64,000 bases of DNA from Pocillopora damicornis (lineage: Eukaryota). Both the position numbers and the translations under genes were made by a program. Under the pieces are notes generated by a model, which saw only the letters and a list, made by a program, of their open reading frames with translations, was not told where the DNA came from and did no database searches. Numbering within the stretch: the first letter of the stretch is position 1; each line of letters starts with the position of its first letter. This document shows, piece by piece, positions 37,106 through 61,383 of the stretch. The stretch spans positions 1 to 64,000 of the forward strand of contig NW_020847337.1 of NCBI RefSeq assembly GCF_003704095.1. Reading direction: 5' to 3'.

Positions 37106-40100
37106 TTAGCGATGTTCCTCCATGGAAGGTCCCTGTGGCATCCAATTCTGATCGCCGTACCAGGAACTTATATCACGCGAGTCCTTCCTGTAATATCCGC
37201 GCTCTATGAACCACGAATCTTCGCCCTTCTGACGCTCAGTTTCACGTCCTTCTGCACGCCGGGTATACCAAGGTACATTGTTCAACCTCTGAAAGGCACG
37301 ATCGTGCGCTCGATCGAAAAACCACGACGGATCTAATGGACCTTTGTAAGGCTTGCGCTTCGTATCACAAGGAAACCAGGACTCGTATTTGTCGGTGCTT
37401 CGTTGGAAATCTCGATCTTCTGCTCGGCGCTCATACCACGGCTCAGACCGCTGATGGGTGCGACCTTTGGCGCGCTCAAATAACCAATTAGGAGGTGGAA
37501 CGGACTCAACTGTCTCGGAATCAACGGAATTGCTTACTTTGTCTTCTTGCATGTCGGTATTTCGCCTATTCTTTCTTTTCTTCCCTTTGCTTGACTGAGT
37601 GCGATACACTTCGTCGGACAAAATCGGTCCTTGAGGGGATAACTTCTTCTGAGAATTTTTTGGCAGATTAAATCTCTTTTCCAACCACTCTTCAACTGAC
37701 AACCCAATATCTTTTGGTGGAATTGGGCCTTCGGGTGAAGATGTATCTAGGGAAACTTTCCTATGATTCGCCTCTTCGTACGAATAATCAGACCTTACTT
37801 GGCCATCTTCGCCAGAAATCGGACCTTGCGGTAACTTAACATCACGCTTCACAGTATTCCTATTCCTATCCTTCCACCACCTATTATCACGTGGCCGTTT
37901 CGGCTTTTCATCGGTTCGCTTCGGTTTCTTAACGGAACTCTTCGGACCTTGTCGTGACTTCTTCTTTCCAACATCGTAAGTCGATTCTTCAGAAACTATG
38001 ACGAAGGCCGTCTCTGTGGTTTTGTCCGAATCATCCGAAGTTTTTTCCGCGCGTTTTGGTTTAACATCTCCCTTAAGCAACATTCTCAACATAAGATCCA
38101 TGTCGAACGTAAAGTTTGTAAAACCAGCAAGCGCTTTATGCTCAGGTACCACTGCTATTTCTGACTTCTTAACTTCTTCTGGCATCTTGCGTTCTTTTTT
38201 ATTTCCCTTCTTCTCAGTCTTCGAAAATATTTCTTTTGCCTGGACTCTTCCATTTTCCCAATCGCATCTTTCGGTCGATTTCTCTCTGTCTTTAGTTCTC
38301 TTGGCCTTTGCCGAGTTCAAATCACGCATGTTAAGTTCTTTTTCTTTACTATCTCCTGCGTCGTGGTGTGTTCCAGAAGTCTTTCCCTCATTGCTTCCAG
38401 CATCAAAATATGGCTTTATCAAACTCCACGGCCAATTGATCGTTTTTCCTGGCTGTTCAAGAGCTTTCTTGGGAACATCACTTAACCACTTTCCAACATC
38501 TTCTAACTTTTTCCTAAAAGACACTTCGCCATCAGTCCACGGCCAATGACCCTGTCCTTGTTGGTGTTCAATGGCACTGTTATGAACATCGGACAACCAC
38601 TTCTGAATACCCTCCAACTGCTTTTTAAAGGACCCCTCGCCATCGCTTCTTTTTCTTTTTTCCTTGGTATTTTTTGGACGTGACGCTTCTTTTTTCACGT
38701 TATCAGACCGCATCTTCCATTCTCCTTTGGAAAACTTACTCTTTGCACCTTCTCCCTTTGCCCTCCGTTTTTCTTTATCATATTCAACTTGCTCAGCGAT
38801 AACAGAGTCATATTCTTTTTTTCGCTTCCTTTTCTTCTCATCCTTTTCCACTTTGATCCTCAGTTTTTCGTTGGCCCGTTTTCCCGTTCGTTTCCTTCCC
38901 TCCTCTTTGACCTTCCAAATCTTTTCCTTGCTTTCTAAATTTTTCCTCTTACGGGGCAGCTCTTTGCTCCGTAAGTTTTCTTCCTCCTTAGCCTCAATCT
39001 CAACTTCTTTGGGTACCCTTCCATCATTTTCCACGGTCTTTCTTAAATCTTGCCCATTAGTTTTGTCTACGGATTCATTTCTTAGTTCATCTTTATCTTT
39101 TAGTTTTTTACTCTCCACTGTACGCCGAGTGTTTTCTTCCTTTTTCCTCCGCTTTTCTTTGTCGAACTTGGGTTGCTCATTGACAACAGAATCATATTCT
39201 TTTTTATGCTGCCTATCAGCTTTTTCTCGTTTCTTCCTCGCCTTTTCGTTTTGTTTCTCCTTCTCCTGTCTTTTTATGTTACGGAGCTCGTTTAACCATT
39301 TTTTATACTCTTCTTTTGCCGCTTTCTTCAAGGACTTCAGTTCTTCCTTCTGTTGCCGCAGCTTGTTCTTCTCTTGAACAATTTTGTTCCTAAGGCGCTC
39401 CACTTCCTTCTTCTTCTCTGCACTTAAAGTTTTCTCTTTAAGCTTCAATTTGTTCCTCTCTTTGGTCAACAGTTCTTTTACTTTCTCCCTAAGTTCCACT
39501 TTCTTTCTCTTCAATTTCTGCTTTTCTCTTTTCAGTGCCACAAAAAAATTGTTCATCTCTGTTCTGTTCCTTTGATGACGTTCTTTTTCGGAAGAAATCC
39601 TCTTCTTCTCTCGTTTAAGTGCCTTCCAAGAGCGCCGCAGGTTTTTCTTCTCTTTCTCCAAACGGCGCCTTTCACGCCGCATCTCTGACACCAAGCGGTC
39701 AGCCTCCTCAGCGCGCAACTTAGCCTTCTTTTCTTTCTTTTTTAACTCGCGCCGGAGAATCCTCTGTTTGCGAATCTCTTGCCCACGTAACTGCGTCAAA
39801 TTTTTCAGCTGCTGCTTCTCTTTGCTGAGGAAGTGTCCATCTGATTGAACAGAAGTTCGGTTTCCCTTTCCTCTCTTCTTCAAGTATCCACTTCGACTGT
39901 GACGTTTTCTCTTGACATTAGAGGCCTCTTCGCTTTTTTTCATAACAGATGCTTCGTATGACTTTAAAAGATGAAAACCCGCAACATTTCCTTCCGATTT
40001 TCTTGATATCTTAGTATCTTCTTTGGTTGGTATGCTAGGCGCTTCCTTAGCATAGGATTCGTCGTCGTGAATCCAATTTCCATCACTTGTACTGTCTACG

Positions 40101-43100
40101 TACGAAATAACTTGGAGGTCTCTTTGCTGCGTTGTTACTGTAGGGGATAAGGTGTTCGCATTTCTTTCTAAATCTATGTTTGAATAATACTCCGGAGTTC
40201 CGTGGCCAAGAGGGAAAATTCCGTTAGGAAATAGAGGATTTTCAAAAGGAACACTTATTTTACGGAAATCTTGGCATATTTCTTCAGAGGGGCTATTGCG
40301 GCCTTTACTTTCTCCGTCTAAAGACTGCGACTTCTCAGTTTTCTTATATTCAAAATTTTTATCGGTTGTTATCGGATCTCGCACGGATTTTTTGGCTGTT
40401 CTATCCAAGAATTTCTCAATAACAGAAGCAGAGTATGACATTATAGAGCGGTCCTCAGGGAGAACACTTAACTCCTTCCTTTCACTGGGATAAGTGCACT
40501 TTCCAGTCTTTGACTGACAACTAGCATCCGTTTCTCCCTTCAAATGCGAATCTACTGTCCAACGTTTTCTAAAGTCCGTCCAGACGTTGTCCCACGTATG
40601 CTCTTTGGTTCTACCTTGAGACTTAATATCTAGTCCTTTGGAACCAATGGTGCCTACAGAGTCTTCGTGTCCCGGCGTTTCTGTCTCAATTGACAACTTT
40701 TGACTTGTATTTACGCTAACGGTTCTGAACCCATTCCTTTTCCAACGATGAAAATAATCCTTCCAGTACCTGCAATAAACGTAAGACAACTCCAGAATCA
40801 TTCAGTTACCCTTTGAAGTAGCTTCCTTGTTAGAGCAACACTGCGCAAATATAATTAACCCTTTACACCCTTACATCAGTATGCATATTCCCCATACTGT
40901 TTTCTACACAATTCCTAAGGTGCTGACAAGAAGAATTTGTTTATCAATCAAGAGAATATTTAGTTGGTGATCATTTCCTTTATTCTCATGACCTCACTGT
41001 GTCATGCAGGGGTTAAATAGTCGGGAGAAATTAGATGTTAGTCGCTCTCAGGGGTTAAAGAGTTAAGCTTGTTTTTACTTTGGGTTCTCGCTAGCTCCTT
41101 GAAATATGGGCTCTGATTGGCTGCCGTGTTCACTTTAGTTTTACGACACTCTCTCGAATTGCGCTCTATTGATACACCTTGTGAAAAGCCCAAAAGTCTG
41201 GAGAGCAAAGAAATTTACTTGATGACTTTCTCCTAAAAACCCTAGACAACACTGGACCTTTGTATATAAATGTACTCCTGTCTTGCTTAATACAACTCAT
41301 TACTAGTCGCTGGTCACAGAGCTGAATAAACACTGAGTAGTTGACATCGACACGCCTTCCCTATTCCTCCAAAGACAACTGAACACAGCTAAGCTGCACT
41401 TACCTATCTATCTTGATGCCTCCAGCCACAGCCTTTCTCAGCTTCGAGTTCTCGTTCATACGGCGCCACAGATCAGCAATTTGTTTTTCCTTTTCGTAGA
41501 GCCTCTCCGTTTGTTCGAGCTGTTCTTGTAAAGCTTTACTCCACTCACTGCTTCCTTTATTAGACTTCTCCTCCTCATACTTCAGCCGCCAGTACCATGA
41601 CATGACTTTGCTCATGCGCAAACGCTGTTTTACACTTTCGTGCATGCTCATGAGCTTGAAATGTTTCAGTTGGAGCTTTTCGTGCAGTGCTTTCGTGTCA
41701 AATAGATCATCTATTTCCTTTTCATTTTCTGACTCTTCATGAGTTTCAAGGCGTTCTTCTAATTTCCACATTTCCAGCTGATCTAGGAAATCAACTGATA
41801 CTTCATCCAAGGGCTCCATGGGATCGGAGTTTAGTGGAAGAGAGGCTGTCTTGGGCCCAGGTCTCTTGATGCTCCCAGACATCTCCAAGGCTCGGTTGCT
41901 GATAAAAACACTCAATCCTAAATAAAGTGGAGATTGGATATGAACCTTCATAAATTCATGAAAAAAATATGTTTCCTTCCATCAGCTAAATTTATTTTTT
42001 TTTTTTTTGGTTGTGGTAATATTTTCAAGCTGTCTCACAGGTACAACCAAAAGTGAAACATTTTAACTCATAACACCTAATCAAGCAGTCAGATAGTTTA
42101 TATACATACATATATTAAGTGTAAAACAGTGCTCAATACATAGGAGTGATCTCACTCTCTCTATCACAGCTCAGAATTTTTCAAAACATTATCCTAGCCA
42201 TGGGTGGAACCTTAAATCAAGAGACTCTTCATAAATTTGAAAACATTAGCCATTTTCCTAGTTTATATTTCATTAATGCCAAACTTGTTTCCCACCTGAA
42301 ATATTAAAGAGTCATCTTTCATTCTTTACAACCTACCATCATTACACACATTTTCCTTACTGTTCTCTATACATTTGATCAGGTGCTTACAAGGAGAATT
42401 TGTTTATTGATCAAGAGCTTCTTTGGCTGGTGATAACTTCCTTTATTTATGTGACCTTAATATGTGATTCAGGGGTGATATTAGACGAAGGAATAAGATG
42501 CTCCTAACTCTTAGGAGAAAAGGGTTTACCAAAAAATTTGTTTCCATTAAAAAAAGGCATCCTCCAAACAAAACCCTTGCAAAATTATCATTCTCTGAAA
42601 TACATTCATTACAGTAGTTAAAGAGCCATTATCATTATCATTATGCCTTACCATAGCCAATACTGAATCCCAGAGCAGTTGTTACACCCAGAACTACGAA
42701 CAAGGTTGGAATATCAACATGGAAGATATTGAAATTGTCACTTCCTTCTGTCGCAGTATGATCTTCCATTGGTTCATCATCCTCATCTCTTCCTTTGTCC
42801 TCATCAATGACTTCAGACACTTTTGTTAAATCAGAACTGCCATTTTCAACCTCATTGTCTTCATCCAAATCACTAGGATTAAATAAATCACTATCAAATG
42901 AGAAAATGCTGCTTGTAGACACAACCATTTCATCATGTGGTTCATTTTCATGACTTAGGTCTTCATAGTCTTCGTTTTCATCTTGTTCAGGGATTGTCTC
43001 AATGGCATTATCTTCGTCAGAACTGTTTGAATCATTACCAAAGGAGAAAGAACCACTCTCTGAGAGTAGAGGAAGTTCTTGCCAAACACAGGAATTACTG

Positions 43101-45394
43101 TCTGTTGATTTAGTGAGGGAATGTACACTTCCTGCATGATCAATGTCCAATTCAGAGGGCAACTGATCATCATTGCCTTCCACAGAAGAAACATCCTGGT
43201 CGACACAGTAGTGATTTGAAATGATCATAATACCATCATCTGCAGCACACTGGCAAGAGCTTTGTTGAACTGTTGAAAGCTCATCTCCTCTCTCAGATTC
43301 TTGACCAAGATGTAAATCATTCTGGGTTTTGGTTTTTGTTGTAAGATCAGAGTCCAGGTTCTTCTCTTCGACTGGTGGTTGATGACACTGAAATCCACTG
43401 AGGACCTCAAACTCTGCCTCTCCTTCACTGTCATCTGTAGCACTGGGTGACTCAAATGTGGAAACTAACCCATCAGCATTTGAAGGTGACTTGGAATAGG
43501 ATACAGAGTTCTTCCTTGGCTGAAAAAACCAAAATCTAGCTTTGAAATTTTGTTTCCTAGAATTTAATTTTTCTGCACACTAGTATAAGTTTCTTAATTC
43601 AATAAATAAATTAAAAAAGACATTAGACAATTTAATAAGATAATACATGGATGAATAACAAATTCAATTTTAAAAAAGAAAGAAATAGGCTGAATTAAGC
43701 TGTTTTTTATGGTTTCTTTCAAGTACTAAACATTTCAACAAAGGAAACCAAATAAAACTTTTAAAGCAAGGAAATATAAAAACAAAGAATGTTCTTCATT
43801 CACAGCTCCCTGAAATTCTAAGATTTAACCCTTTAACTCCCAGATCAAATTTATTATTCTCCTTCCTGTCTTATCATACAATTCTTATAAGGTTAGTTTG
43901 GAGAATTTAGTATTGGATCAACTAATTATACACAAATTGATATTTTTCTTTATTCTTATCACCTATCTAGTTGATATTGTATTGATATTGTAAGGAGAAA
44001 TTTTGTCTTGGTCACTCATGGGAGTTAAAGGGTTAAAAGAAACAAATTGCTTGGCCAGCAAAAATTTCTTCAAACAGAATCAGCACCAAATGCTATTGGA
44101 TCCATACAATTACTGTATTTATGACAGTAATTATTTTAAATATTGTTATTTATAACAGGTATTGCAGTAATTTTGGAATTTAAAGTAAACATTTATAAGA
44201 TCATTATTAAAAATAAAATCAAAAAACTTCTCTGCCTAAGTAGGCATGGCTAGTAACTTAAAATAATTTCAAGAACTTAGGTGGTGGCAATTGCTTAGCA
44301 TTAAAACACATTTCTCAGTTTTTGTTAATATTCTTGAAACAATCTCTGGTAGCTTGAAAATCAATGACTCCTTATAGCAATCAATTAAAGTAAACATTCT
44401 ATTTTTCTTTCTTCTTTCTCTGCACCTACAAATTTCGTGGCCAAATAAATCTGAAATTAAGATGATCATCTACTGATGAATTCAACATTAATTTTATTTA
44501 CATAAATTGAGTCAAAATTATAGAAATTCTACTTATCCAAAGTGAATTCTCAACATAAGAATCTGTATCACTAAAAATTTTCTAACTTAAGATCAAATCA
44601 GCCAAATAGTGAGAAGGTATCATTATGAAGCTGACAATTCCCTTGATATTTCTATTAAAATTAAAATCACTCCAATTTAATGAAGAACTTTGACCTTGAC
44701 AAAGAAATTATTTAACAAAAGTTACAGTTTGCTCGGCAACATAATTTTTTCGCCCAGTGCGGACTGCTGAATGTAACAACAGCAATGGGCTGAGAAAAGG
44801 AGGTAGAGAGTACAACAAATTTGTTATCATTTTCACGTTTAATAATAAACACCCGGCTTATGTAATCACAGGTGTAAAACGAACGTGGTTATCACGTGGT
44901 TATTGTTGACAGGCGAAAAGGTAAATACGACAAGTCCAAAATGCAAATTTATGGAGACTTGGGGACGTTTTGTAAACAAACAGCCAAAATAATAGTACGC
45001 TTGGCTAACTAGCCGTGTTGCTAATGCACGGGGGGGTTTTGTAACACCCAAAATTGTGCTGCGATTCACCTAAATTAATGCAGGTTTCGAACATCCTGAA
45101 TTTACACTCCAAATGGCGGAAAATCCCGGCGCCAAAATTTTGGGCGGTTGAAGCATTTGCATTTAGAATATACCCCACCTAGATTAGACGATTTCCACAA
45201 ATTTACCTATGTAGAAGGACTAGTTAAACTGAAGACATATTCATTTTTAAGCATGAGAGTGTGGAAAACCAGAACATTTCTTTCGCTGAAAACGACAAGA
45301 AACTTAAGATGCACTTTACCTCGATGTCAACTTTTCCATCCTTATCGACAAAAGTCCACTCGTTTTCAAAATCGTCTGACATTTTGGAAGCCAT
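37106..45394 (-). CDS. CCPG1: CCPG1/PBXIP1-like type II membrane protein (putative ER-phagy receptor), 4 exons, ~1706 aa
   Basis: Exons 45320-45394, 42652-43519, 41404-41917, 37106-40769 join in phase (5121 nt). N-terminus MASKMSDDFENEWTFVDKDGKVDIE resembles human CCPG1 ..SCGWTVISHEGSDIE (LIR + FIR1). Then an acidic disordered region, a single TM IPTLFVVLGVTTALGFSIGYGLSVFI, and coiled coils. Next to PIGBOS1/PIGB as in human. The gene model is solid; orthology is inferred. Confidence 0.65.
40855..41066. mobile_element. piggyBac-like MITE (TTAA target sites, CCCTT termini)
   Basis: ttaaccctttacaccc...ggggttaaagagttaa. Internal tgacaaggagaatttgttt...atcaagag is shared with copies at ~11418-11645, ~30130-30280, ~35150-35270, ~42330-42530 and ~51505-51710. 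Confidence 0.75.
43825..44036. mobile_element. piggyBac-like MITE, intact ends
   Basis: TTAA-CCCTTTAACTCCC ... GGGAGTTAAAGGG-TTAA: perfect 13-bp TIR plus TTAA duplication. Confidence 0.85.
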
Positions 45395-47037
45395 GACTCC
45401 CGCAGAAAATTAATCACATAATGAAAAGACGACTTAAACAAGAGATTTCTCTAAACGCCGCTACTTACTAGCACACGATTCTGAGATATTTACTATCAAC
45501 AGTCGAATGTTTTGGTTTTTGCTCAACTAAGCGTTTCATGTTGTCAATCCGGGATAGTGGTCATGTGATAGTAACTAGCCAATTACAGCATCTACATTTG
45601 AATATTTTTGCTCCTGTTTCACGCCCCCTGTGAAGCTAACCAATCAAATAAAAGCTGGATGTAAATAAAGTTTACGTTCCTTTAAGTTCGTGGTAAAAGT
45701 GATGCAATTTTTGTCATTTGGAACAACTCCTACGTGTAGAAAAGTATAACTGCCACGTATACTTCAAATCGCTTCATCTGAAGGATTAAATGTCAATAAT
45801 TTCTCAAATAACTCACTCTTCGGCACTTTTACTTTAAAAATGTACACAAGCAGAGCGGTTTCGCTTGCGGGAAGAGCGTCAGAATTTGCATATAGGAAGG
45901 GAAAAAACGCTGGAAAGTTGCCATTTCTGCAACTGAACAGTTTTCAAAATATGCCAAGAAACTGAAGGTGTCACAGCATATGTTTTTAAGCTGAAATTTT
46001 TCAGCTGTTTAAGTTGGCGTTTTAGACATAGTCTCATAGACATACTATTTCTCAATATGGACAAACGATTGGCTGAGATAGAGAAAGTTGTGAAAAGAGT
46101 GGAAATTTGACAATAAGAAAAGAAAACGAAATAAAGTTAAAAGCCGTTTCGATATATTTTTGAAAACAGTTAATTCTCATGCATAGGGCACCCTGAGAAC
46201 ACTCTTGAGATGAATTCTAGATAGAGAAAGTCAGCCTGCTTCAGTTTTTTTTTTTTTTTTGCTGAGCAAACAATGCAAAATATTAGCTTGGTAAATAGGA
46301 GTATTGAAGCACTACAAGCATTAATCTTATAATTTTCTTCAATAGCAATGTCTTGCTTTTCTACACAGCTCACTCAAGGTCATGGTTAAGAAAAAACCCT
46401 TTTTAGGTGTATTCCCTTACTATACATTACTTGAAGGAACATCACCACAGCTACCTCTTGTAAATAAATATGTGTATTGTAAAATTTCTCCCTTTGATTT
46501 CCATGTACATTATTATCCAATCATAAAATTCTTTACATTCACTAAGTGACATCAAGTTGCTAAACTATCATGTTTTTATTTGCCTACTTTTATTTCAAAT
46601 ACAATTATACAAGGCAATTAACATTACAGTTCACTTTTGATAACAAGTGTTGATCACAAGAGTATCTGATTTAAGTACAAATATTAGCTAATACAGAGTG
46701 AGATAGCTGGTGGTCGTGAATTACATCGCTTAAAAAATCAACACAAAAATTAAAATCCCTTGGAGCAAGAACCATTACAAAAGTTTGTTTGAGCATACTT
46801 CTAAGTTCCAAGGCATTAATGCATGCATTTTTGGCTCCTCCTGAACCCCAGGGAACCCACTAGGACATTGAGAAGGAAAAGGAATTCAAAGAACATCTGA
46901 TGTGTAACCACAATTTGTCAGAGCGATGACAAAGGGCCTAAGCTTGAAACATCAGCTTTGAAACTCTTTATGGTGGTTAATTTACACTATCAACTCCTTG
47001 ATAAGACTAAATTACCCTGTTACACTCTCCCACCAAT

Positions 47038-47068
<31 letters not shown>

Positions 47069-47292
47069 TCTTTATTCAATTGTTTTGAGAATGGTCTAGT
47101 TTAACCAGCAATATATTCTCTTTGAGGTCATTTTTCTCAGTTCTTACTCAAGATGGTCATTGCAGTTCTTTTCACTCTACATAACTTTTGCTGGTCTTCA
47201 CTTGTTAGCTAGAAATGGGTCACAGGCATTGGGAGAAATTTTCTGTAGATTTCATGCTCAAAAGATGGCAAAAAAAATATTTTTATAAATTC

Positions 47293-47500
47293 TGTACACA
47301 AAAAGTTCACACTCAGGGATTGGACAACATTTGCAATTCAGACTTAAGTGGTTCTGATTGTGAAAAATGATTGTAAAAAATGTATGGGAATCTAAATTAT
47401 GTACACAAAAAGTTCACACTCAGGGATTGGACCACATTTGCAGTTCAGACTTAGGTTGTTCTGCTTCTGAGAAATGATTGCAAAAAATTTAGGGGAATCT
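47293..47500. repeat. Tandem direct duplication, 2 x ~107 bp
   Basis: tgtacacaaaaagttcacactcagggattgga...gggaatct starts at both 47293 and 47400. Confidence 0.9.
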
Positions 47501-48119
47501 CTTTGATGAGCAAACTTGAACATTAGCAAAGATCTAATTAGACTAGTTTAAACAATGCCTTTTAAAAATTTGATCACTGAGTAATGTATAATTTTTACAA
47601 CTACCAATAAATGTATTTGAATTATGTATCATGTAGGAATCAATCACATCATTCAAATTCAGTTTTTTCCTCAAGCTTCTGTTTGCTACCCAAAAAAGGA
47701 AGGCAAAAAAGTGAAAATTAAAAAAAAAAAATTATGACCAATTTTTCCAAGTTCGATTTCCTACAGGATACGAAGTGTAAGCCATTCCCCAAAAATTTCA
47801 CTCCATCAAGGGTTTGCCCCATATGATATTTACCCCTAAAGCACAGTCTATACAGTATTCCACCCCAGCAGGACCGAGTGCATTTAACTTCCTCAGACAG
47901 AGTCATACTAATACTTATATTGCCATCACTGTGCAATTAAGCTTGATTCCACCTTGATTTTCACCTTATGAGGCTTGCGATCGCAGTATTCAGCTTCACG
48001 ATGTCATTTTCGGGATAGAAGTCACCAGCAGCCCACCTTAATTCATATCAAGTACAGGTAAATTCTTGGAGACATCACATTACACATTTCATTTCAGCGA
48101 GCGACATAAGAGAGGTTAA

Positions 48120-48386
48120 TTACTTTTCAGATGCTTTTTCTTCCCTTGCTTTTTCTTTTGCAGAATTCTCACTAGGACGATCTTTCTTTTGGGCCGACGT
48201 TGTGCTCTTTGCCTCAACTGCAGCTTGAATGGTGGCGCTATCCTCCTTCTTTGTACCATGTTCACTCACGTATCTCTCGAGCAACGGTTTGTAGATATAT
48301 ACACCACTTGTAACTCCGACTAAAGTCACTATAAATAACTGATGTAGAGGCATTCTTCCGATGCTTCTGATGAAGGAAAGCACCAT
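48120..48386 (-). CDS. PIGBOS1: PIGBOS1-like microprotein (88 aa; single N-terminal TM, charged tail)
   Basis: RMPLHQLFIVTLVGVTSGVYIYKPLLERY aligns with my recall of human PIGBOS1 [30 protein letters not shown]. Good start context aaaATGG. Divergent from PIGB, as in human. Confidence 0.88.
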   Translation of the reverse strand: MVLSFIRSIGRMPLHQLFIVTLVGVTSGVYIYKPLLERYVSEHGTKKEDSATIQAAVEAKSTTSAQKKDRPSENSAKEKAREEKASEK

Positions 48387-48505
48387 TTTAGGACCAGATC
48401 GTTACGGTCTATCAAATATCATCAGGCGTTACTCGTTAGCGATAGAGTTGAGACTAGGCTCCACACTATAGAGACGCCTTGTTGATTTTGATACCGAAGG
48501 TGAAA
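48387..48505. promoter_or_regulatory. Very compact bidirectional promoter/5'UTR region for PIGBOS1 and PIGB
   Basis: Only 119 bp between the divergent start codons; CpG-containing. Confidence 0.7.
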
Positions 48506-51500
48506 ATGGAGGTCGAAGAAATTGGAGGATCTGAGCTCAAAAGAAGAAAACAGGCTCAGATGGATAAGGAATCAGAGCAGCCATCTTCTATCTACCAGGG
48601 AGAAATCACCATGGTATCTCCAAATGTTATTTACCCGTCAAAAAATTGGCTGTTTCCGGCATTACTCTTCTTTAGGGTCATCAATGCTGTGGTGATCCAG
48701 ACATTTTTCGTCCCGGATGAATTTTGGCAAGGACCCGAAGTAGCCCATAGAATTGCATTTGGATATGGATATTTGACGTGGGAATGGAAAGAGGGTCTTA
48801 GAGGCTGGACTTATCCTTTGATCTTTGCAACAAGCTACAAGTGCTTAGCCCTATTTGGGATTGACACCGCCAAGTTCCTTGTTGTCATTCCCAGGGTGTT
48901 GCAGGCATGTTTTGCGTCGTGTGGCGACTTGTTTTTGTACAAATTAGCAGCAAAGAGGTTCGATGTACAAACTGCTCGATGGACACTCATCTGCTACTTG
49001 ATCTCGTGGTTTACACTTTACTGTGTGACTAGGACGCTGACAAATTCCCTAGAAACCGTGTTGACAACAGTAGCACTTTATTACTGGCCATGCGGCAGCA
49101 AAAAAGATGGCTTTAAACAAGTGTTCAAAGCTCTCTGTATTGCAGCGTTTTCTTGTACTATCAGACCAACAGCTGCAGTCATGTGGATTCCATTGTGTGC
49201 TTTTTATTTATTTTCATCACCAAACAAATTATCATTTATAGTTAACTGTATATTTCCCATTGGATGTCTGGCTATTTTATGGTCCCTCATTGTGAACAGT
49301 TGGTGTTATGGCACATGGATACTGGTGGAACTCAACTTCATCAAGTTTAATGTTATTAATGATATGGGAACATTTTATGGAAGTCATCCATGGCACTGGT
49401 AGGTAAAATTTGGACTCCTCTAGCTTGGAGCAGTTCTTTCCTTCAATAAAGGAAAGGGAGCTCTTTTTGTAGAATACAATATGTGAGTTGTTCTTCAAAA
49501 ATTATGCTTCTGCCTTGGCTAATACCTGCATATTTCACAGGTATTTCACCCAAGGATTTCCTGCTGTGATGTTTACACACTTGATTCCATTTGTTGGTGG
49601 TGTTTACAAATCTTCCCAAAGGCAGCAAACCTTGACTTTTCTAATCTTTTGGAGCATCGTTGTCTACAGGTTTGTTGCAAATGGAAAGAGAACCCTAAAT
49701 CTTTCTTTTTTAAATAAGAGCTAAACTTTTGTGATAATGTTTTGCCAATCTCTGAAAACCTGGCGATTAAATATTGGGGATGTTTGGTACAGACTGTTCT
49801 GAGTGAAAAGTGCACCATCCTGATTTTCTGCAACATTTGAATTATTAGTCAGTAGGATCAGTTGTATAGTTAAATACCAGATTATAATAAAAACTATTGT
49901 TTTCCCCTTTTTTCTAGTTTCTTGGGACACAAGGAGTTTAGGTTCATTTTTCCAGTGGTCCCCTTAGCCATGTGCTACTGTGGTTTCTATCTAAGCTTCC
50001 TTTCTGGGTATCCGTGTGAGAAAAAGGATCATGCATTTAGTCGTGGTTTTTCAAGGAAGATGAAATCTGGTTGGAAAGCAAAGATAATGGTACTATTTCT
50101 AGCGCTAACAAACATTCCATTGGCTATATACACTAGCACTGTTCACCAAAAGGGAACTACTGATGTCATGGAGTACATTCAAATTGAAAGCTCCAAACTG
50201 AGAAGTGCTAATGACATGTCTGTATTATTTCTGATGCCATGTCACTCGACACCATTTTATAGGTACAGTACTGTTTTTAATTTTGATGGTTGCTCCTGTG
50301 AAACTGTTTTCAGCTTTTTTTGTACATGTATTTGCTTTCCTTTTCTTTAGTATCTAACTACCCCATTCCAAGTTTTAGTTCAAGGAAGATGACTGAAAAA
50401 TAGGAAGTTCAAAAAATTTTTTTTGCATGCAAACAAGATAGGATCCATTAGGTTACAAACTTCATCATTTTTCTCATTTACCTCCTTGTAATTCACTCTT
50501 CTCCATGAATTGAAAGCCTAACACAAGAAACAGATTTGACCCATGACAGTAGTTACGAGTTACTGGGAATTACTGTTCAAACGAGGTTCAACATTATAAA
50601 AGTTTTCATGACTTCTAAAAGGAATTTGATCTTGTTGGAAAGGTCACATAAAGGCAAGATGTCGAATCTTGATGTTAAGGTAATTTACCTTGTAGGGGAC
50701 AACCTTGTCCTATTGTGAATTTACCTGCCTTCAGCAAATTATTAAATAAATAAACTTGCAAGAAAATACACAGTTTCTGAGCATCAGAATGCAAAGAGAA
50801 CATAGTAACACTCATAAGGAGTAGATTGAATCTAACTGAATCAGAAGTTTATGTCCTACTTCATCTTCGGTTGTGGATGAATATAAACCTAATAACTCAT
50901 TAAATAACAGGGTTTTTTTATAGTTTTGTACACAGAAACATAAGCATGAGGATATTAGAATGTCCCCCAAGTGATGAGGCAGGGTACATTGATGAAGCTG
51001 ATCAGTTTTACAGAAATCCCACATTGTGGCTATCAGAAAAGTATGGACTCTCTTCAGGTCATCAGGATCAGCTTCAATTTCCTACACACATTGTCCTGTA
51101 CAATGTGCTTTTACCCGTTAGTTGATCTTTCTTCACCATACTTGTATCATTCTCTTAGTCTTACAATTTTAAATGAAACAAGTCTAAATTTACCTTGGAT
51201 GAAAATCAGGTAAGAAAATGATTCTTACAGGTGAGCTGCAATTCACAATTTTAGTAGTTGCAGAAAAAAGCCTGGAAAGATTCAAGTTTTGATGAGATTC
51301 AAACCATGCCTCCCAGATTCTAGTTTAGCACTACTACCAACTGAGCTACAAGACTTCTTGTTGGGTGTCATCATCTCTTCTCCCCAACCCTTGTTGATTT
51401 GTAGTCTTGTAAAAATTCCCAATCATCAGCAAACAATTACTTTTTGTTCCACCATACAGTAAATTACCACCAACGGCAGTAATACTGCCAACCAAAAACT

Positions 51501-52425
51501 CCCTTTAACCTGTAGGAGTGACTATCATTTAAATTCTCCCTATATTATCAACCCTGAATCACGCACTAATGTGATGAGAATAATTAAAATGATAACCAAT
51601 TAAAGAAGCACTTGATTGTCAAACAAATTCTCCTTGTCAGCACCTTAAGAAATATATAGAGAACAGGATGGAGAATATAGATACTGATATTAGGGTGTTA
51701 AGGGTTAATTTAGCTTTTAGTCTGCCAGTAACCATTGTTCACTTTTTGTACCTCCTTTTTTCATAATTTTGTTGTTGTTTTGTTTTTACTTGTTACAGAC
51801 TCTTTGTTTTGTTCATTCATAATTTAGTGTTTTTTCCTCATAGGATGTAACGAACTGGTTGGGAAATTTTCATTTCAAAGAGGTAACATTGTTTGACAAC
51901 CACACTTTTTTATTGTAATCTTAAGTCTTAGATACTTGCAGTAATAATCAGTGGTTATATATTTTAGGGTTTTGCCTTGATCAACATTCTAAAATTTATA
52001 CTTTATTGCCTGGTGATGTTAAACTGCCTCCCTCACTTTAAATGATTTGAGGTTTCTCATTATGATGGAAGATATAAGTAATGACATATCAATCAAATTA
52101 TTGCATCAGTTTGGATTTTTTTTCAATCTCCTACCACTGCCATTAAATAAGAGATGGCAGCCATTTTTTTTTGCTAGGGAAATATTGAGCATTAGCTCGC
52201 CAAAATTACACCTACTTTCCAGGCTAACCATTCACAAGAACATATGTTCTTCATGATTGTTTAATCTTAAGCAAGGGTTATAATGATAAACTTTGAAAGC
52301 CGCATTTTAACCAGTGAAATTTGTTTTGGTTTTTTCTGTTGCAGTGTGCAAGATTCTTTCACACCCATTTCCCAGAGGGTCGCATTGGATCTGAAGTATT
52401 GGTGTACTGCCATCAGAACACATAG
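48506..52425 (+). CDS. PIGB: GPI mannosyltransferase 3 (GT22), 6 exons, ~559 aa
   Basis: Exons 48506-49398, 49541-49669, 49918-50262, 50924-51116, 51844-51882, 52345-52425 (1680 nt). Motifs QTFFVPDEFWQGPEVAH, GYGYLTWEW, RTLTNSLE, FYGSHPWHWYFTQG, HKEFRFIFP, FLMPCHSTPFYS, DEADQFY, FFHTHFPEGRIG. Confidence 0.97.
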
Positions 52426-53569
52426 CTAACATCATATCAAATGAAAACTTTTTGAATTTAGTGCTTTGTATTGTGTGCTCTCCTCTTGTTTGGGTTTTTT
52501 TTTTCTTTACATAATGAACATAAAAAAGAATGAGTTGAGGGGACAGCTGTAAACAGGCCACAAGTTAAGGAGTTTTGTATTTTTGTGCTCCATGTGCAGG
52601 TAACTAGAAAAAAATAAAATATCCAGCCATTTTAAAGATATATTGTCTCCAAACCCTCTGAAGTTTTAGCAGTGAGATGTTAACACTTTAACTGTCTCAA
52701 TTTTTGTTCTGAACAAAAGTAGTTGGCAAAATCACTGACCCTTTGAACTTCTAGGCCTGATCTTTTACTTGAGGCCAAAGAGGACAACAGTATGGAGTAC
52801 AGGGGAATTTTTTTTCTTTTTCAGGTGAGCCAAGGCAAACATTAGGCAGGAAAAAGATGGGGTTTCTCACTTTTTTCATTCCCCTCACACTTGACTCCAT
52901 TCATTTCAATGATATAAAACAATTAAAGCTTGTCCTGCAGCCAGGAGAACAATTTATGCTTTGCATCAAGCTGGGGATCGAATGAGCTTCAGTTTGAAAT
53001 CCTCTTGGGGCCTGGGAGGTTCTTTTGCACACCCCATGTTAAATCTATTAATTAGCCAATTTTCATATCTAATACACCAATGATCAGAGGCTTCTTGACG
53101 ACAGAAACTTATTTAATTTGTATTAAACTAATCATTACATATCACAAAAATCTTACTTAAAGTAAAATTAAAAGCGGCATGTTTTTCCATGATTGAAACA
53201 CATGAAAATTTTGAGGCAAGAACATTCTAACAAGGTCAAACATTTTACCACCAATAAGGTGACTTGAGAGCAAGCATGCAAAGACAGCTATCTAAGACTT
53301 CCACAGTAAAAAAAATTGCATTTATATGTACAAAATATAACTAACAGGCCCACAATAAGTCCTGGAGAGGCAGACATTGACAGCATGTTAAATCTGAAGC
53401 AGCCCCTTGATGATTTTGCAAGCGCTTGATCGTATTGTTCATGCACCCATTTAAAATGCCTCTGACAGAGTGGACAAGAATATGATCCCTGTTTTTATCA
53501 TTACATTTCAAATCCAACTTAAATTCATTTCATAAATGTCTGTACAATATGTTTCCTGAGCAAGGCTTT

Positions 53570-54368
53570 TTACTTCACTTTCTTCCTGAATAAGAGTATA
53601 TGTGGCTCTGTAGAAAAATTGTAGAATATGGGTTACAACTTTTAACCGTATTCTTCGCAATTAACAGCTTCTTATACGACAAAAGTTATTTAGATTTACA
53701 ACCAAGTTACCTATTTTAAATTTGTAAATTTGCCTTGGTGAGGGCATGGGATCATTTTGGAGCTTAAGTGTGTTGTTGATTGTTCTCTTAAATTTGTATT
53801 TGGCTTGTGCCTACAAAGTTTGTCACACAGTTCAACAAGAACATAGCCAAAACGGTAACAATGGCGGAGAGATTTCTACTTCATTCCACACATTTACTAG
53901 TTACAGCTATTCTTAACAGATTTAGATTTGAAACGTAATCAGAGACAAGTAACAGGCAATAAGCAGTCTTACTCTGTTTCTCATTTCTGAAACCGTTACA
54001 CGTTGTTTTGAAGCTGTTTACCTGGTCCGTGTCTCAAGTAATGTACCCATCCTTGTGATTGCTGAACCCCCAAATTTCGCCACTCTTGTTCTGTCATAAG
54101 CCTCTGAGGAACTTTCTTGGCGATGTCCTTTGGTAAGATAACATGTCTTGTAGGTACAAAAAATAGAACACGCTATTAGGAAGAAGCTGTTACACTATTT
54201 GTAAGTTTGACCAAGCAGCTGTTATCACTTCTTCGCGTTTCGAAATCAAGGAAGAAAAGGGAGCAAACATTACTAATAACTACTCCGGATTTTCAAGTCT
54301 TACCTGAATTCGTATTCACCTGCGTCATCGGCGTATCTTGGGGAATAATAAATATCTCTCACAGACAT
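53570..54368 (-). CDS. CKS: Cyclin-dependent kinase regulatory subunit, divergent paralogue (75 aa)
   Basis: Exons 54304-54368, 54022-54146, 53570-53607: [75 protein letters not shown]. Missed by the ORF track. Confidence 0.93.
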
Positions 54369-57091: not shown

Positions 57092-57365
57092 TTCGACGAC
57101 CTCTGACGACCCAAACCAACTTCTTCCCGGTAAATGTCACATTAGAAATATTTGTCTCGACTTTTAAGATTGGCGCGCTGCTTTCTGATTGGCTACTCGT
57201 TTAGACTGAGTTCCCAGACTGCTTTACCAATTTCAAGATGGCGGACGTTTACGTGGCCTTATGCGATTGCAAACATCTCCCGAAGATGCTCCCTTGGTAA
57301 CTAGTTGTATGGGGAAATTATGTGGAAAGTGATAGCCCGATAAAAATTCTTACACACTGGAAAAA
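57092..57365. promoter_or_regulatory. Putative bidirectional promoter between CKS and PARP16
   Basis: 274 bp between divergent ATGs. CCAAT boxes (ATTGG at ~57170 and ~57188, CCAAT at ~57227), E2F-like TTGGCGCG at ~57171, YY1 consensus CAAGATGGCGG at ~57234-57244. Confidence 0.72.
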
Positions 57366-60300
57366 ATGGAACCTGAAGAAGCGAAGGAACGTGTGCTACA
57401 AAGACTTGAATCTGACCTCACATCCGCTGACCTGCAGTGGAGTTTGTTTATTGCAGCTCTGGAAAGTTATAGACACGACAGCATATTAAGACCCTTTCCT
57501 TCTGCATACGTGGTTGGTGATGATAATAAGAATTTTCAAGGGCTGGTGAGTGTCGGTCACCTAAAAATCTGAGTTCAGCTGTACTTTACATTTTAGAGCT
57601 GGACATTCCGTTTTCCCCTAATTCCCTCTCCACTCCTCCTCTTCTCACTTCCCCTCTTCCCAAATCCATTTTTGCTTTCAGCACCTTTGACGACTGTATC
57701 GAATGATTTAAAAAAACTTTAAGGCCTCTTGAAAAAATTGTGGCCATCTTTTAACACATACACCCAAAAGCTCTTTGGCAAAGATGGCTACTCACTTGTT
57801 AATTGTGGTACTTCATTGTGATGGACAGCACCACTAAAATTGGTCTTCACAGGTTCAAGTTTGCAGTACAGTTCCTGCATTTGACAAGCTATTGACAGAA
57901 ACCAGTGAGAAGGTATATGCTCAAGAAACTTGGGATATCTTGGACTGGGCACTGGATAGAACCTTTGCACTGAGATCTGTTAAGAAATCTGTGGTATGTT
58001 TTTCAATAAAAATTTGCCTGATTATGGATCCTTCTGTCTTTTTTGCCTTATGATAATTGTAAAATTGCACTCCATGTACCTGAAAGAAGTCAGATTTTTA
58101 GACTAAAATATTACATAATTTTATTATAGATTAATAATATTTCAATAACAGCCTGGGCAATATTATGTTGGTGAAATGATCAACTTAGCTGTTACTTTTG
58201 CTGGTGCTACCAGGACTCTTATATTAAGCACAGTAGGTGAAGGAAATTGTCAAACCAGCACAGCAAATCTCTAACCTGTTGAATTTGCAGAATTTTAGGC
58301 AACTGTAGGCAGCTGCAAGAAGTACCACAACTGGTGAATGTTAGTGGTGTCTGCCTGAAAAAGTAAACCCTGTGTTACATAAGTTAGTATCTTATAATTT
58401 CCGTGACAATTATTTTTGCTATTATTAATGCCAACAGTTCTTGGAGATTGAGAAAAAAACTGGTCAAGCAAGTTACTGCTCCACCACACCTGACTTCATT
58501 TTCGAAGTTGTTTACAGGGAGACAAATACTCTCAGTGCAATGTTTGATGACATGTCACAGACTCGTGATGTTTGGTACGCTTACCATGGAAGTAGAGTGG
58601 ACAATTTTCATTCTATTTTGAATAATGGATTACATGCACATCTTAACAAAGTGAGTCTTGTCAGCTGTTTGCTTAGTTGAGTTACTTGGTAATCCCTCAA
58701 AGATTCTCACTGATCAAGTGGCTGGCTGGCTATGTGACTGACTGATTGGCTGACTGACTGACGGATTGACTCACTGGCTGATTGACTGGCTGACTCACTG
58801 ACTCACTGACTCACTGGCCATCTGGCTGACTCACTGGCTAACTGACTGACTGATGGACTGGCTGACTGGGTAACTCTCTGGCTAACTTACTGGCTTGCTG
58901 ACTGACTGGCTAACTCACTGGCTGGCTGACTGACTGACTGGCAGACTGGCTGACTGTCCAACTAACTGTAAGCCCACAAAGTAAGTTTGCCATAAACTGA
59001 AATCGCTCCTTTATTTTACACTTGCCCTTTCATTATTTTCCTCTGGATCTCCAAGGATGAATGGCTGATATGTATATGAACATTAATAAACATGTCGAAT
59101 AATTAGTGGACAGGAGATCCAGTGGCCTGATGGTCAGTGCACTGGACTCTGGATCAAGTGGTGTATGTTCAGGACCTGGTCAGGTCAACGTGTTGTGCTC
59201 TTGGACAAAACACTTTTCTCCCATAGTTCTTTCTTTTTCTCTCATAGCACCTCTCTCCACCCAGGGCCCACTTGTTTGAAAGAGGGTTAGCAACAATCCA
59301 GGATTAAAAGTTTACCTTGTCCTTGATTTATCTTGAAATAAAGCAGATACTAGGGCTTACCTCTTGAGGGGTTTTGCCATAAAGTTAGTGTAAGACAAAA
59401 CTGAAGGAGTAAATAAAAACTGTTCTCAAAGCTACAAAACAAAGTAAAAAATTGTTGGCAAACCCTCAGTTAGCTTAATTGTCCTTTGGACAACCCAACC
59501 AAGGAGTATATTTAATAGGTACTGGTGAATTGTCAGGGAAGCCTGATGAAATGCTTGGGGGGTAACTGTGCACGGACTGGCATTGGATCCAGAGGGGAGT
59601 AGTAATACTCCCAGTCGCTTCATGCTAACATGGAAACCGGGATAAGCTCTGGTTTGGCTGGGCAAATAGGCTTAGTACAGACTCAATCTAATCAGTTGAA
59701 AGACTTATGGTTTACTCTATTTATGTTTCATTTGTTAAACTGAGTAATTTTGTATTATAAACTGAGTTGATAACAGAAATTTGCCACCATAAAGAGTTTG
59801 AATGCTGATGTTTCAAGTGCTAACCCTTTGTCAGGGAATGACCATGACCAACATTCACCCTGATGTTTAAAATTTTAGCTTTGAAACTCAGCTCAGCTGA
59901 TAATACTAAATACCCACTTATACTCTCCCACCAATGCAACACCACAGTTTCTTCAGAAACTTACCCTCTATGATGTTTAATTAGATAAATTGAGTAGTAA
60001 ACCAAACCGCTTTTCTTCATTTTTTTAGACATCATTTTTTGGAGAAGGGACCTACCTGTCAAGTGATTTAACTGTTTGTATGAATTACAGTAGTTTTGGT
60101 TCAGGCTGGAAAAACAGCACAATTGGAGAAAAATTAAGTATCGTGGCTGTCTGTGAGATCCTGGACCATCCAGATGTGAAGTGTACTATCAAATCTAAAG
60201 CAAATGACAACAGACTAACTCGTTCTAGGGCCAGAGCAAGAAACAGTGAGGGAGGAGATGTCCCAGAGAGATATTATGTGGTTACAAACAACCAAGTTGT

Positions 60301-61383
60301 TAGGGTGAAGTATATGCTGGTGTATGCTGAGAAGAAAGCACCTACAAGGTATAGTAAATGTAGCATTACAATCATTAGTAGTAATAAAATTTATTCTTTC
60401 TCCTAGATAGTTGATACCTTCTCATTTGTGCATTCTTGTTACTTGGGTAGCTGAGAATTAAACAGGAAAGAACAATATTAGATGACCTTCTCGAACACTT
60501 TTTGATTGAGTGTCATAAATTCAAGAACAAAATTCCTATGACAACAGGCAATCAAAAGATAGGAAAAAACCTTAAAGAATCTCTGAGAACTTAAAGAAAA
60601 AACCACCAAACTCCTTAAAGCATGGTAAAATGTAGGCACCCAAGCCACGATTGGTTAGTTCTGCATCTGATTGGTTGAAATAGAGGTGCAAATTTTCTGG
60701 GCCAATCACAGGGCAAAGTGAAGCAAAACTAATGCAATCCCAGATGACTTTTGATACTCAATTGAAAATTGCTCTTATATCAATGTTCACTACTTTGGAA
60801 AATTTTGTTTGACGTTTCCTGATCAGTTACATTTTGTACCTGGTGTTTTTTAAACTGTATTGTCCTTCTTTCTGGGGTTTATCTGAACTACTAGTGAACC
60901 ACTTACCTCCAAGATCATATGGGTAATTCTCCCATCTTGTTACTTTTCATTTCCTTGAAAGTATGTTAAGAGAAGCTGATGCTATATCAGGATAGTACCC
61001 TTCCACTGATCATTTTGTCTCTTTTCATCATTTGTTTGCAGGATAGTTTATTAAATTTGAGAAGGGAAAGCATTAGTTCATCACTTCTGGGATTTAAATG
61101 ATGTACATAAACTTTGTTGTGTGACAGACAGATCCCTACATCTCTGTACATATTTTGTGGAAACTGTGGTTATGTATTTTCACATTTAAATTTCTATCCT
61201 AATTTTGATTTATGGTAACTTTCTTTTGTCTCCTGATCCAGGACTCAAGCTCGTAACTGGCTGATATTCCGATATCCGTTAGCCTCAATCATGGTTGCCT
61301 ATATCTTAGTTTTAATTTGTGTGGGTTTCTCCAAAACAAGACTTTTCCAAAAGTTTTATAGGAAATATTTCAAAGGAAGCTAA
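57366..61383 (+). CDS. PARP16: Mono-ADP-ribosyltransferase PARP16 (ARTD15), tail-anchored, 5 exons, ~331 aa
   Basis: Exons 57366-57545, 57853-57993, 58438-58650, 60029-60348, 61242-61383 (996 nt). ADLQWSLFIAALESYRHDSILRPFP; H-Y-Y triad in AYHGSRVDNFHSILNNGL, FGEGTYLSSDL and VPERYYVVTNNQVVRVKY; C-terminal TM LASIMVAYILVLICVGF. Confidence 0.95.
58718..58968. repeat. Degenerate tetranucleotide microsatellite (GACT/GGCT/CACT)n; shorter tract at ~24920-24990
   Basis: ggctggctggct...gactgactgact...cactggct arrays. Confidence 0.9.
60500..60775. mobile_element. TIR MITE family with CCAAT-rich interior (copies at ~12778-13055, ~26300-26470, ~41070-41170, ~62520-62690)
   Basis: Shared accaatcagatgcaaaactaaaaccaatc core (or its reverse complement); termini resemble agagcaatttt...ttgaaaattgctct. 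Confidence 0.6.

What the first reader, a model, noticed from the sequence alone, without database searches (positions are those of the whole stretch)
37106..61383. Candidate ancient ER-stress/UPR gene neighbourhood: CCPG1-like, PIGBOS1, PIGB, PARP16
Seen: four genes within ~24 kb. Known mammalian functions: CCPG1 is a UPR-induced ER-phagy receptor, PIGBOS1 modulates the UPR at ER-mitochondria contacts, PIGB makes GPI anchors in the ER, and PARP16 is ER tail-anchored and activates PERK and IRE1. Inference: this may be a co-regulated ER-proteostasis cluster, relevant to heat stress if the organism is a coral. It may also be passive linkage of housekeeping genes.
Basis: inference. Interest (0 to 1): 0.7.

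Follow-up and report, generated by a model that had tools for sequence, protein, structure and literature searches.

The report
Ancient gene block with coral CCPG1
Four ER-related genes sit together in this stony coral, with an unrelated cell-cycle gene among them; they likely form an old block of mostly housekeeping genes rather than a jointly switched stress cluster, and one is likely the coral counterpart of CCPG1, an ER-recycling receptor described as vertebrate-only.

Summary
All four genes are real and intact, and RNA contigs cover them. Two corrections: the CCPG1-like gene starts at 45394 in an unnoticed first exon with a LIR motif, and the cell-cycle gene CKS lies between PIGB and PARP16. 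The block is old. PIGBOS1 and PIGB are head-to-head (ATGs 119 bp apart) here and in 7 of 7 other coral-like loci with upstream DNA. In Oculina, the CCPG1-like and PARP16 locus tags are four apart. PIGBOS1-PIGB-CCPG1 are neighbours in human, where PARP16 is not in the interval. Joint ER-stress control is not supported by promoter motifs: no ERSE or heat-shock element occurs in the block, though the same scan finds them at BiP, calreticulin and HSP70. Only the CCPG1-like promoter has ATF4-like and XBP1-like sites conserved in three corals. Expression under stress was not tested. The better lead is the 1706-aa CCPG1-like protein: its LIR/FIR motifs and membrane anchor are conserved to Nematostella, its position matches, and its nearest Atlas clusters are CCPG1/PBXIP1 (0.87, a lead only). 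Papers call CCPG1 vertebrate-specific. No direct alignment to vertebrate CCPG1 was obtained.

The parts
37106..45394 (-). CCPG1-like gene, coding exons 45394-45320, 43519-42652, 41917-41404, 40769-37106; 1706 aa: acidic N-terminal region (aa 1-295), one membrane helix (about 296-316), conserved helical region, K/R/E-rich region, five C-terminal Trp-Arg repeats; long 3' UTR to about 35292
   Evidence: RNA joints; model; Oculina orthologue 44.5% over full length; Nematostella orthologue; no second match of exon 3 in the genome
45320..45394 (-). First coding exon with the LIR/FIR-consensus motif E-W13-T-F-V16 and D23-I24-E25
   Evidence: Joint 43519-45320 in 4 of 4 runs; motif conserved in Oculina and Nematostella; human W14/I17 and S22-D23-I24-E25 from PMC5791736
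45561..45864 (.). CCPG1-like promoter: E-box 45561, CCAAT 45579 and 45640, ATF4/CARE-like TGATGCAAT 45700, XBP1-like GCCACGT 45752, unexplained conserved block about 45834-45864
   Evidence: Scan and three-way alignment; exact shared words; motif names are recalled consensus
48120..48386 (-). PIGBOS1, 88-aa single-exon ORF
   Evidence: PF23670 E 4e-14; RNA contigs 47033-48417; 12 homologues; one match in the genome
48387..48505 (.). 119-bp spacer between the divergent PIGBOS1 and PIGB start codons; likely a shared bidirectional promoter; no UPR motif found
   Evidence: RNA contigs reach 48417 and start at 48494; short conserved blocks in 8 aligned loci; scan
48506..52427 (+). PIGB, GPI mannosyltransferase III, 6 exons, 559 aa
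   Evidence: PF03901; five GT-AG joints in RNA; model
53570..54368 (-). CKS, cyclin-dependent kinase regulatory subunit, 3 exons, 75 aa; non-ER gene inside the block; E2F-like sites upstream
   Evidence: PF01111; joints; model; motifs
57366..61383 (+). PARP16, 5 exons, 331 aa, C-terminal membrane anchor; one GCCACGT at 57251 upstream of the ATG
   Evidence: Pfam; four joints; named homologues; alignment; scan
29152..34179 (+). TIPIN (flank), convergent with the CCPG1-like 3' end; last exon assigned by position only
   Evidence: PF07962 Swi3 E 2e-14; ORFs
62693..64000 (-).
   Evidence: ARM matches

Best explanation
The four genes and CKS lie together in this coral as a likely remnant of an ancestral animal gene block that is likely held at its core by the shared PIGBOS1/PIGB promoter, and only the CCPG1-like gene is predicted to be a stress-induced member. 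Shown: gene structures, the head-to-head spacing, conservation among corals, and motif presence or absence. Inferred: a break in the 119-bp spacer would damage two genes, which keeps that pair together; CCPG1-like, CKS and PARP16 ride along through tight packing and slow rearrangement, and PARP16 left the block in vertebrates. Inferred for the CCPG1-like protein: a type II ER membrane protein whose cytosolic acidic tail binds ATG8 (and possibly FIP200) through the motifs at aa 13 and 62, whose long lumenal part captures cargo, and whose own promoter answers to ATF4/XBP1-type factors, so that it would work as a UPR-induced ER-phagy receptor like vertebrate CCPG1.
For: Head-to-head PIGBOS1/PIGB in 7 of 10 loci fetched, which is 7 of 7 coral-like loci with upstream DNA, about 5 distinct sequence types. 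CCPG1-like exon 1 lies upstream in 2 of 2 loci long enough. Oculina tags G001682 and G001678 are on one record, leaving three tags between as here. Human interval lists PIGBOS1, PIGB, CCPG1 and no PARP16. Human PIGBOS and PIGB may share a promoter (PMC6814811), and 5'-5' pairs with short spacers are the commonest conserved ancient pairs (PMC3514665). CKS1B lies near PBXIP1 in cattle and chicken. No ERSE or ERSE-II in the 64 kb, no HSE near the block; BiP has ERSE and ERSE-II, calreticulin an ERSE, 2 of 5 other HSP70-family loci scanned have HSEs; 0 ERSE in 260 kb of background. CARE-like and GCCACGT sites are 2 of 7 exact blocks shared by three coral CCPG1-like promoters. Two LIR-type motifs are conserved across window, Oculina and Nematostella. 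Atlas top hits are CCPG1/PBXIP1 clusters, 0.87, 180 of 256 features.
Against: No alignment to vertebrate CCPG1: phmmer with exon 3 gave 13 hits, none named as a vertebrate protein. The Atlas score is under 0.9, and the C-terminal repeats gave no hit. The FIR1 and FIR2 equivalents (DIEPR, DDGIMII) do not meet the strict FIR consensus. CCPG1-like lies on the other side of the PIGBOS1/PIGB pair than in human. The CARE plus GCCACGT pair occurs 4 times in the genome against 3.9 expected, so it is not enriched, neither ChaC locus has a strict CARE, and the two comparison corals are related to each other (85% in PIGB). PARP16 has one GCCACGT near its start. An unchecked note says Trichoplax PIGBOS1 is back-to-back with PARP16, not PIGB, which would weaken the shared-promoter anchor. 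The three Oculina genes in between were not identified.
Confidence: 0.62

Rival explanations
1. A co-regulated ER-proteostasis cluster: the four genes are kept together because shared enhancers or chromatin switch them on together in ER or heat stress.
For: All four have ER or UPR roles in mammals. The block is old; unchecked notes put all four together in Trichoplax. GCCACGT occurs near both the CCPG1-like and PARP16 starts, 2 of 4 such sites in 64 kb.
Against: CKS interrupts the block. No shared ERSE, HSE or strict CARE, while control genes have ERSE and HSE. PARP16 is outside the human interval. PIGBOS-CLCC1 binding is unchanged by ER stress. GCCACGT occurs in 7 of 169 CpG-rich 600-bp background windows. 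An ER-rich run is expected by chance at modest assumed shares.
Confidence: 0.12
2. Wholly passive linkage: no constraint at all, only slowly rearranging coral genomes and genes drawn from one ancestral linkage group.
For: Gene order differs between coral and human. Neighbours are mixed housekeeping genes: TIPIN, CKS, an ARM-repeat gene, chondroitin synthase, a CoA transferase. Gene bodies of PIGB and PARP16 are CpG-poor, which by recall marks methylated, steadily expressed coral genes.
Against: PIGBOS1/PIGB keep the same divergent layout in corals and human, with spacers of 82-119 bp in corals and conserved short blocks in the spacer. Three adjacent genes staying neighbours from coral to human is unusual (established knowledge; no genome-wide rate was computed here).
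Confidence: 0.2
3. The CCPG1-like protein is not a CCPG1 orthologue but an anthozoan membrane protein with chance LIR-like motifs, so only three known genes are present.
For: No Pfam hit, no vertebrate hit, twice the length of human CCPG1 (1706 against 757 aa), Trp-Arg repeats without an Atlas hit, and three papers call CCPG1 vertebrate-specific.
Against: Same architecture, LIR and D-I-E at nearly the same residue numbers as human, motifs conserved to Nematostella, position beside PIGBOS1/PIGB, and Atlas features pointing to CCPG1/PBXIP1 from a query chosen without those families.
Confidence: 0.15

Closest known systems
Human 15q21.3 block RAB27A-PIGBOS1-PIGB-CCPG1 (PMC11972509; PMC6814811)
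   Same: PIGBOS1 divergent from PIGB; a CCPG1-type gene adjacent and on the same strand as PIGBOS1.
   Different: In coral the CCPG1-like gene lies beyond PIGBOS1, not beyond PIGB; CKS and PARP16 follow PIGB; the coral PIGBOS1 ORF starts 119 bp from the PIGB ATG, whereas the human ORF is in exon 2.
Vertebrate CCPG1 / PBXIP1 (PMC5791736, PMC10092646; Pfam 38.1 PF27636, PF27631)
   Same: Acidic N-terminal tail with a Trp LIR near residue 13-14, FIR-type motifs, one membrane helix, long C-terminal region.
   Different: 1706 aa; FIR1/FIR2 equivalents deviate from the consensus; K/R-rich region and C-terminal Trp-Arg repeats; no sequence alignment shown.
Conserved ancestral microsyntenic pairs, 5'-5' class (PMC3514665)
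   Same: Divergent orientation, very short spacer, conservation across distant animals.
   Different: Whether this pair is in the published list could not be seen (supplements not readable); PIGB is not named in the main text.
PARP16/ARTD15
   Same: ARTD15_N plus PARP domain, catalytic region aligned with vertebrate PARP16, C-terminal membrane anchor.
   Different: Nothing notable; activation of PERK/IRE1 is untested in corals.

Membership tests
CCPG1/PBXIP1 | N-terminal LIR (W-x-x-I/V/L after acidic residues) | tested here: met
   E-W13-T-F-V16, conserved in Oculina and Nematostella; human W14/I17
CCPG1/PBXIP1 | FIR1 and FIR2 motifs (acidic, hydrophobic, x, x, hydrophobic) | tested here: inconclusive
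   EFEVL at 61-65 meets the consensus and is conserved; the positional equivalents DIEPR and DDGIMII do not meet it strictly
CCPG1/PBXIP1 | Single membrane helix after an acidic N-terminal region, long C-terminal region | tested here: met
   One hydrophobic segment at about aa 295-316; aa 1-295 are 26% D+E. Orientation in the membrane is inferred.
CCPG1/PBXIP1 | Significant sequence or profile match to vertebrate CCPG1 (PF27636, PF27631, cargo-interacting regions) | tested here: inconclusive
   No vertebrate-named phmmer hit; PF27636 not in the local library; Atlas lead 0.87
CCPG1/PBXIP1 | Position next to PIGBOS1/PIGB | tested here: met
   Window; L004 and L007; human list; side differs
CCPG1/PBXIP1 | ER location, ATG8/FIP200 binding, induction by ER stress | not testable with these tools
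   ATG8 genes are present on 4 contigs; the FIP200 claw domain was not located
PIGBOS1 | PF23670 microprotein with one hydrophobic helix, opposite PIGB | tested here: met
PIGB (GT22) | PF03901 multi-pass mannosyltransferase | tested here: met
   PIGB rather than ALG9/ALG12 rests on recall and on position, no tree was built
PARP16 | ARTD15_N, PARP domain and C-terminal anchor | tested here: met
Co-regulated UPR gene cluster | Shared UPR or heat-shock promoter elements | tested here: not met
   against positive controls
Co-regulated UPR gene cluster | Co-induction under ER or heat stress | not testable with these tools
   Only contigs were served, which cannot rank expression
Co-regulated UPR gene cluster | ER genes stay linked better than non-ER neighbours | tested here: inconclusive
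   PARP16 absent from the human interval while CKS1B stays near PBXIP1; no multi-genome count was possible
Conserved 5'-5' microsyntenic pair | Divergent orientation, spacer under 1 kb, conserved in distant animals | tested here: met

The most novel reading that the evidence does not exclude
A CCPG1-type, UPR-induced ER-phagy receptor predates bilaterians and anchors an ER-homeostasis neighbourhood (CCPG1, PIGBOS1, PIGB, PARP16) that selection has kept since the placozoan-cnidarian-bilaterian ancestor, with joint control in stressed corals. The receptor part alone I put at about 0.6; the probability given is for the whole reading with joint control.
Probability: 0.12. Interest if true: 0.72.

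Novelty: new member of a known kind. Interest (0 to 1): 0.45.

Why it matters
If the coral protein is CCPG1's orthologue, an ER-phagy receptor that three papers call vertebrate-specific is far older and can be studied in Nematostella and Aiptasia; its conserved promoter gives a concrete candidate link between the unfolded-protein response and autophagy in heat-stressed corals. The old PIGBOS1/PIGB head-to-head layout supports the untested proposal that the two share a promoter. The four-gene stress cluster itself is probably not a functional unit.

Tried and rejected
Pfam on three exon frames of the CCPG1-like gene and on 11 homologues: no informative family. phmmer of exon 3 over 1.84 billion representatives: 13 hits, none named vertebrate. 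Atlas with the C-terminal repeats: no usable hit. FIP200 claw domain in the genome: not found, the one weak candidate is not convincing; introns probably hide it. CARE plus GCCACGT as a genome-wide signature: 4 seen, 3.9 expected, rejected as enrichment. ChaC genes as a positive control for the CARE: no strict site, inconclusive; the calnexin promoter was not covered by the fetched DNA. An intron control was badly built and is not used. Rfam: only two tRNA-like matches. RNA depth was not used to compare genes. No related genomes are held for this window, so no multi-genome linkage count. No fold or complex job was sent: ATG8 is split into exons and a LIR-ATG8 pair is a textbook case. Searches for a citation of the human PARP16 position gave none. 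Supplements of PMC3514665 could not be read and may list the PIGB pair.
Full report
Organism and locus. The window is the first 64 kb of a 127-kb contig of a 234-Mb genome. Its PARP16 falls in a 90% cluster with Pocillopora and Stylophora proteins, so it is a pocilloporid stony coral. No related genomes are held.

Observation. I laid RNA contigs from 7 different runs of the 19 listed. They join every intron of the CCPG1-like gene, PIGB, CKS and PARP16 and cover PIGBOS1. Models built from these joints are open: CCPG1-like 1706 aa, PIGBOS1 88 aa, PIGB 559 aa, PARP16 331 aa, CKS 75 aa. Pfam confirms PIGBOS1, the PIGB family, PARP16 and CKS; 110 of 168 candidates passed E 1e-10 in the PARP16 search and the named ones are PARP16 or hypothetical. 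The order is TIPIN(+), CCPG1-like(-), PIGBOS1(-), PIGB(+), CKS(-), PARP16(+), ARM-repeat gene(-). CKS is therefore inside the proposed cluster. With an assumed 5-15% share of ER-related genes, 4 of 5 neighbours being ER-related is expected 0.8-56 times per 25,000 windows, and 0.1 times at 3%.

How old is the block. A PIGB scan of metagenome contigs gave 10 loci. Eight are coral-like (61-74% identity) and two are distant (30-36%). PIGBOS1 lies head-to-head with PIGB in 7 of the 10: all 7 coral-like loci with upstream DNA (one by an 18-residue match at a contig end); L009 has no upstream DNA and the two distant loci lack it. These 7 are about 5 distinct sequence types. The spacer is 119 bp here, 82 bp in L004 and 113 bp in L008. 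CCPG1-like exon 1 lies upstream in 2 of 2 loci that reach far enough. PIGBOS1 and CCPG1-like relatives also sit on contigs of identical length in three cases, which is indirect evidence. In Oculina patagonica the CCPG1-like gene is ACROYT_G001682 and PARP16 is ACROYT_G001678 on the same record, which leaves three tags between, as in the window; I did not see those three genes. In human a 420-kb interval holds RAB27A, PIGBOS1, PIGB, CCPG1, PIERCE2, DNAAF4, PYGO1 and PRTG, without PARP16 (PMC11972509, passage); CCPG1 and PIGBOS1 are 38 kb apart on one strand (PMC9315513, table passage); a chicken window lists CCPG1 and PIGBOS1 together (PMC10480639, passage). That human PARP16 and TIPIN lie about 10 Mb away on 15q22 is my recall; two searches gave no citation. 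CKS1B is listed with PBXIP1, PYGO2 and SHC1 in cattle and chicken (PMC3680339, PMC12649552, table passages), so the non-ER gene has kept closer to a CCPG1-family gene in vertebrates than PARP16 has. Two unchecked AI notes place PIGBOS1, PIGB, PARP16 and a CCPG1-like gene together in Trichoplax, with PIGBOS1 back-to-back with PARP16. I could not test this. It makes an old PARP16 link more likely and weakens the idea that the PIGBOS1/PIGB spacer is the only anchor.

Is it co-regulated. I scanned for recalled consensus elements. The 64-kb window holds no ERSE or ERSE-II, and its one HSE is at 3851. The scan works in this genome: BiP has an ERSE and an ERSE-II upstream, 2 of 5 other HSP70-family loci scanned have HSEs, calreticulin has an ERSE near its 5' end, and 260 kb of background has no ERSE. 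These genes and CLCC1, the partner of PIGBOS, are on other contigs. The PIGBOS1/PIGB spacer has no UPR motif, CKS has E2F-like sites, PARP16 has one GCCACGT, a word found in 7 of 169 CpG-rich background windows. The CCPG1-like promoter differs: E-box, CCAAT boxes, TGATGCAAT and GCCACGT recur at matching distances in L004 and L007, and the last two are among only 7 exact blocks shared over 900 bp. Against this, the pair of sites is not enriched in the genome (4 seen, 3.9 expected), 0 of 2 ChaC loci have a strict site, and L004 and L007 are related. Human CCPG1 is induced by ER stress and possibly through PERK (PMC5791736, passages), and falls on ATF4 knockdown (PMC9917250, passages). Human PIGBOS and PIGB fell together under LPS and were proposed to share a promoter (PMC6814811, passages). 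Divergent pairs with short spacers are the main class of conserved ancient pairs (PMC3514665, passages; supplements unreadable). Expression under stress was not testable.

The CCPG1-like protein. It has an acidic N-terminal region, one membrane helix, a conserved helical stretch, a long basic region and five Trp-Arg repeats. Orthologues are an Oculina hypothetical protein (44.5% over the full length) and Nematostella LOC5517779. Of 3, 4 and 2 LIR-type motifs in the three N-terminal regions, two are shared: at W13 and F62. Human CCPG1 has its LIR at W14/I17 and FIR1 at S22-D23-I24-E25; the coral has W13/V16 and D23-I24-E25, though without the later hydrophobic residue, and the conserved DDGIMII does not meet the strict FIR consensus (PMC7946963, passages). 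The Atlas search with Nematostella residues 1-620 ranks CCPG1/PBXIP1 clusters first (0.87; 180 of 256 features; 7 of the 10 best family hits agree), which is a lead only. No vertebrate-named protein appeared among 13 phmmer hits, the repeats gave no Atlas hit, and the CCPG1 Pfam families are not in the local library. I put orthology at about 0.8 and a conserved ER-phagy role at about 0.6.

Novelty. CCPG1 is called vertebrate-specific in PMC5791736, PMC9126229 and PMC10092646 (passages). Seven searches (listings only, capped at 12-30 rows) showed no paper on a cnidarian CCPG1 or on this block; orthology databases that I could not consult may already group them. PARP16's ER role was read from a review (PMC12402623, passages). 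Verdict: an old microsyntenic block of a known kind, no support so far for joint stress control, and a worthwhile candidate for a pre-bilaterian CCPG1. Interest 0.45.

Noticed in passing
window 45834-45864: Conserved non-coding block about 440-470 bp upstream of the CCPG1-like ATG, shared with L004 and L007, matching none of the motifs scanned and no Rfam family.
   Followed up: partly
window 37109-37480 (-): Five Trp-x-x-x-Arg-Ala/Gly-x-x-Arg repeats at the C-terminus of the CCPG1-like protein, conserved in corals and Nematostella, expanded in some homologues (P0029, P0069) and absent from P0073-P0076; a candidate lumenal binding module.
   Followed up: partly
window 33275-33347 and 33436-33507 (-): Two weak tRNA matches in a TIPIN intron, probably tRNA-derived repeats.
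   Followed up: no
window 52345-53607: RNA contigs cover the stretch between the convergent 3' ends of PIGB and CKS, so the two 3' UTRs may meet or overlap.
   Followed up: no
window 37106-40769: The 3.7-kb last exon of the CCPG1-like gene is CpG-rich (observed/expected about 1) while its upstream exons and the neighbouring gene bodies are CpG-poor.
   Followed up: no
window 10500-28300: An exocyst Sec10/EXOC5 gene (PF20667), a gene that looks like a voltage-gated proton channel (recall, no Pfam hit on single exons) and a 223-aa ORF at 27555-28226 without a Pfam hit.
   Followed up: no
L012-L018 (G000:C3972:64001-127193): The rest of the contig holds the ARM-repeat gene, a PSI-domain membrane protein, a chondroitin synthase, a CoA transferase III, a tyrosine kinase and long repeat-protein ORFs.
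   Followed up: partly
L029:3819-4234: An intronless HSP70 lies head-to-head with a gene that resembles the GPI enzyme PIGN (recall); its upstream region has GCCACGT and no HSE by this scan.
   Followed up: no
Atlas rank 9: An arthropod cluster without a Pfam family ('Trichohyalin-like', 73 members, 0.85) may hold further invertebrate CCPG1 relatives.
   Followed up: no
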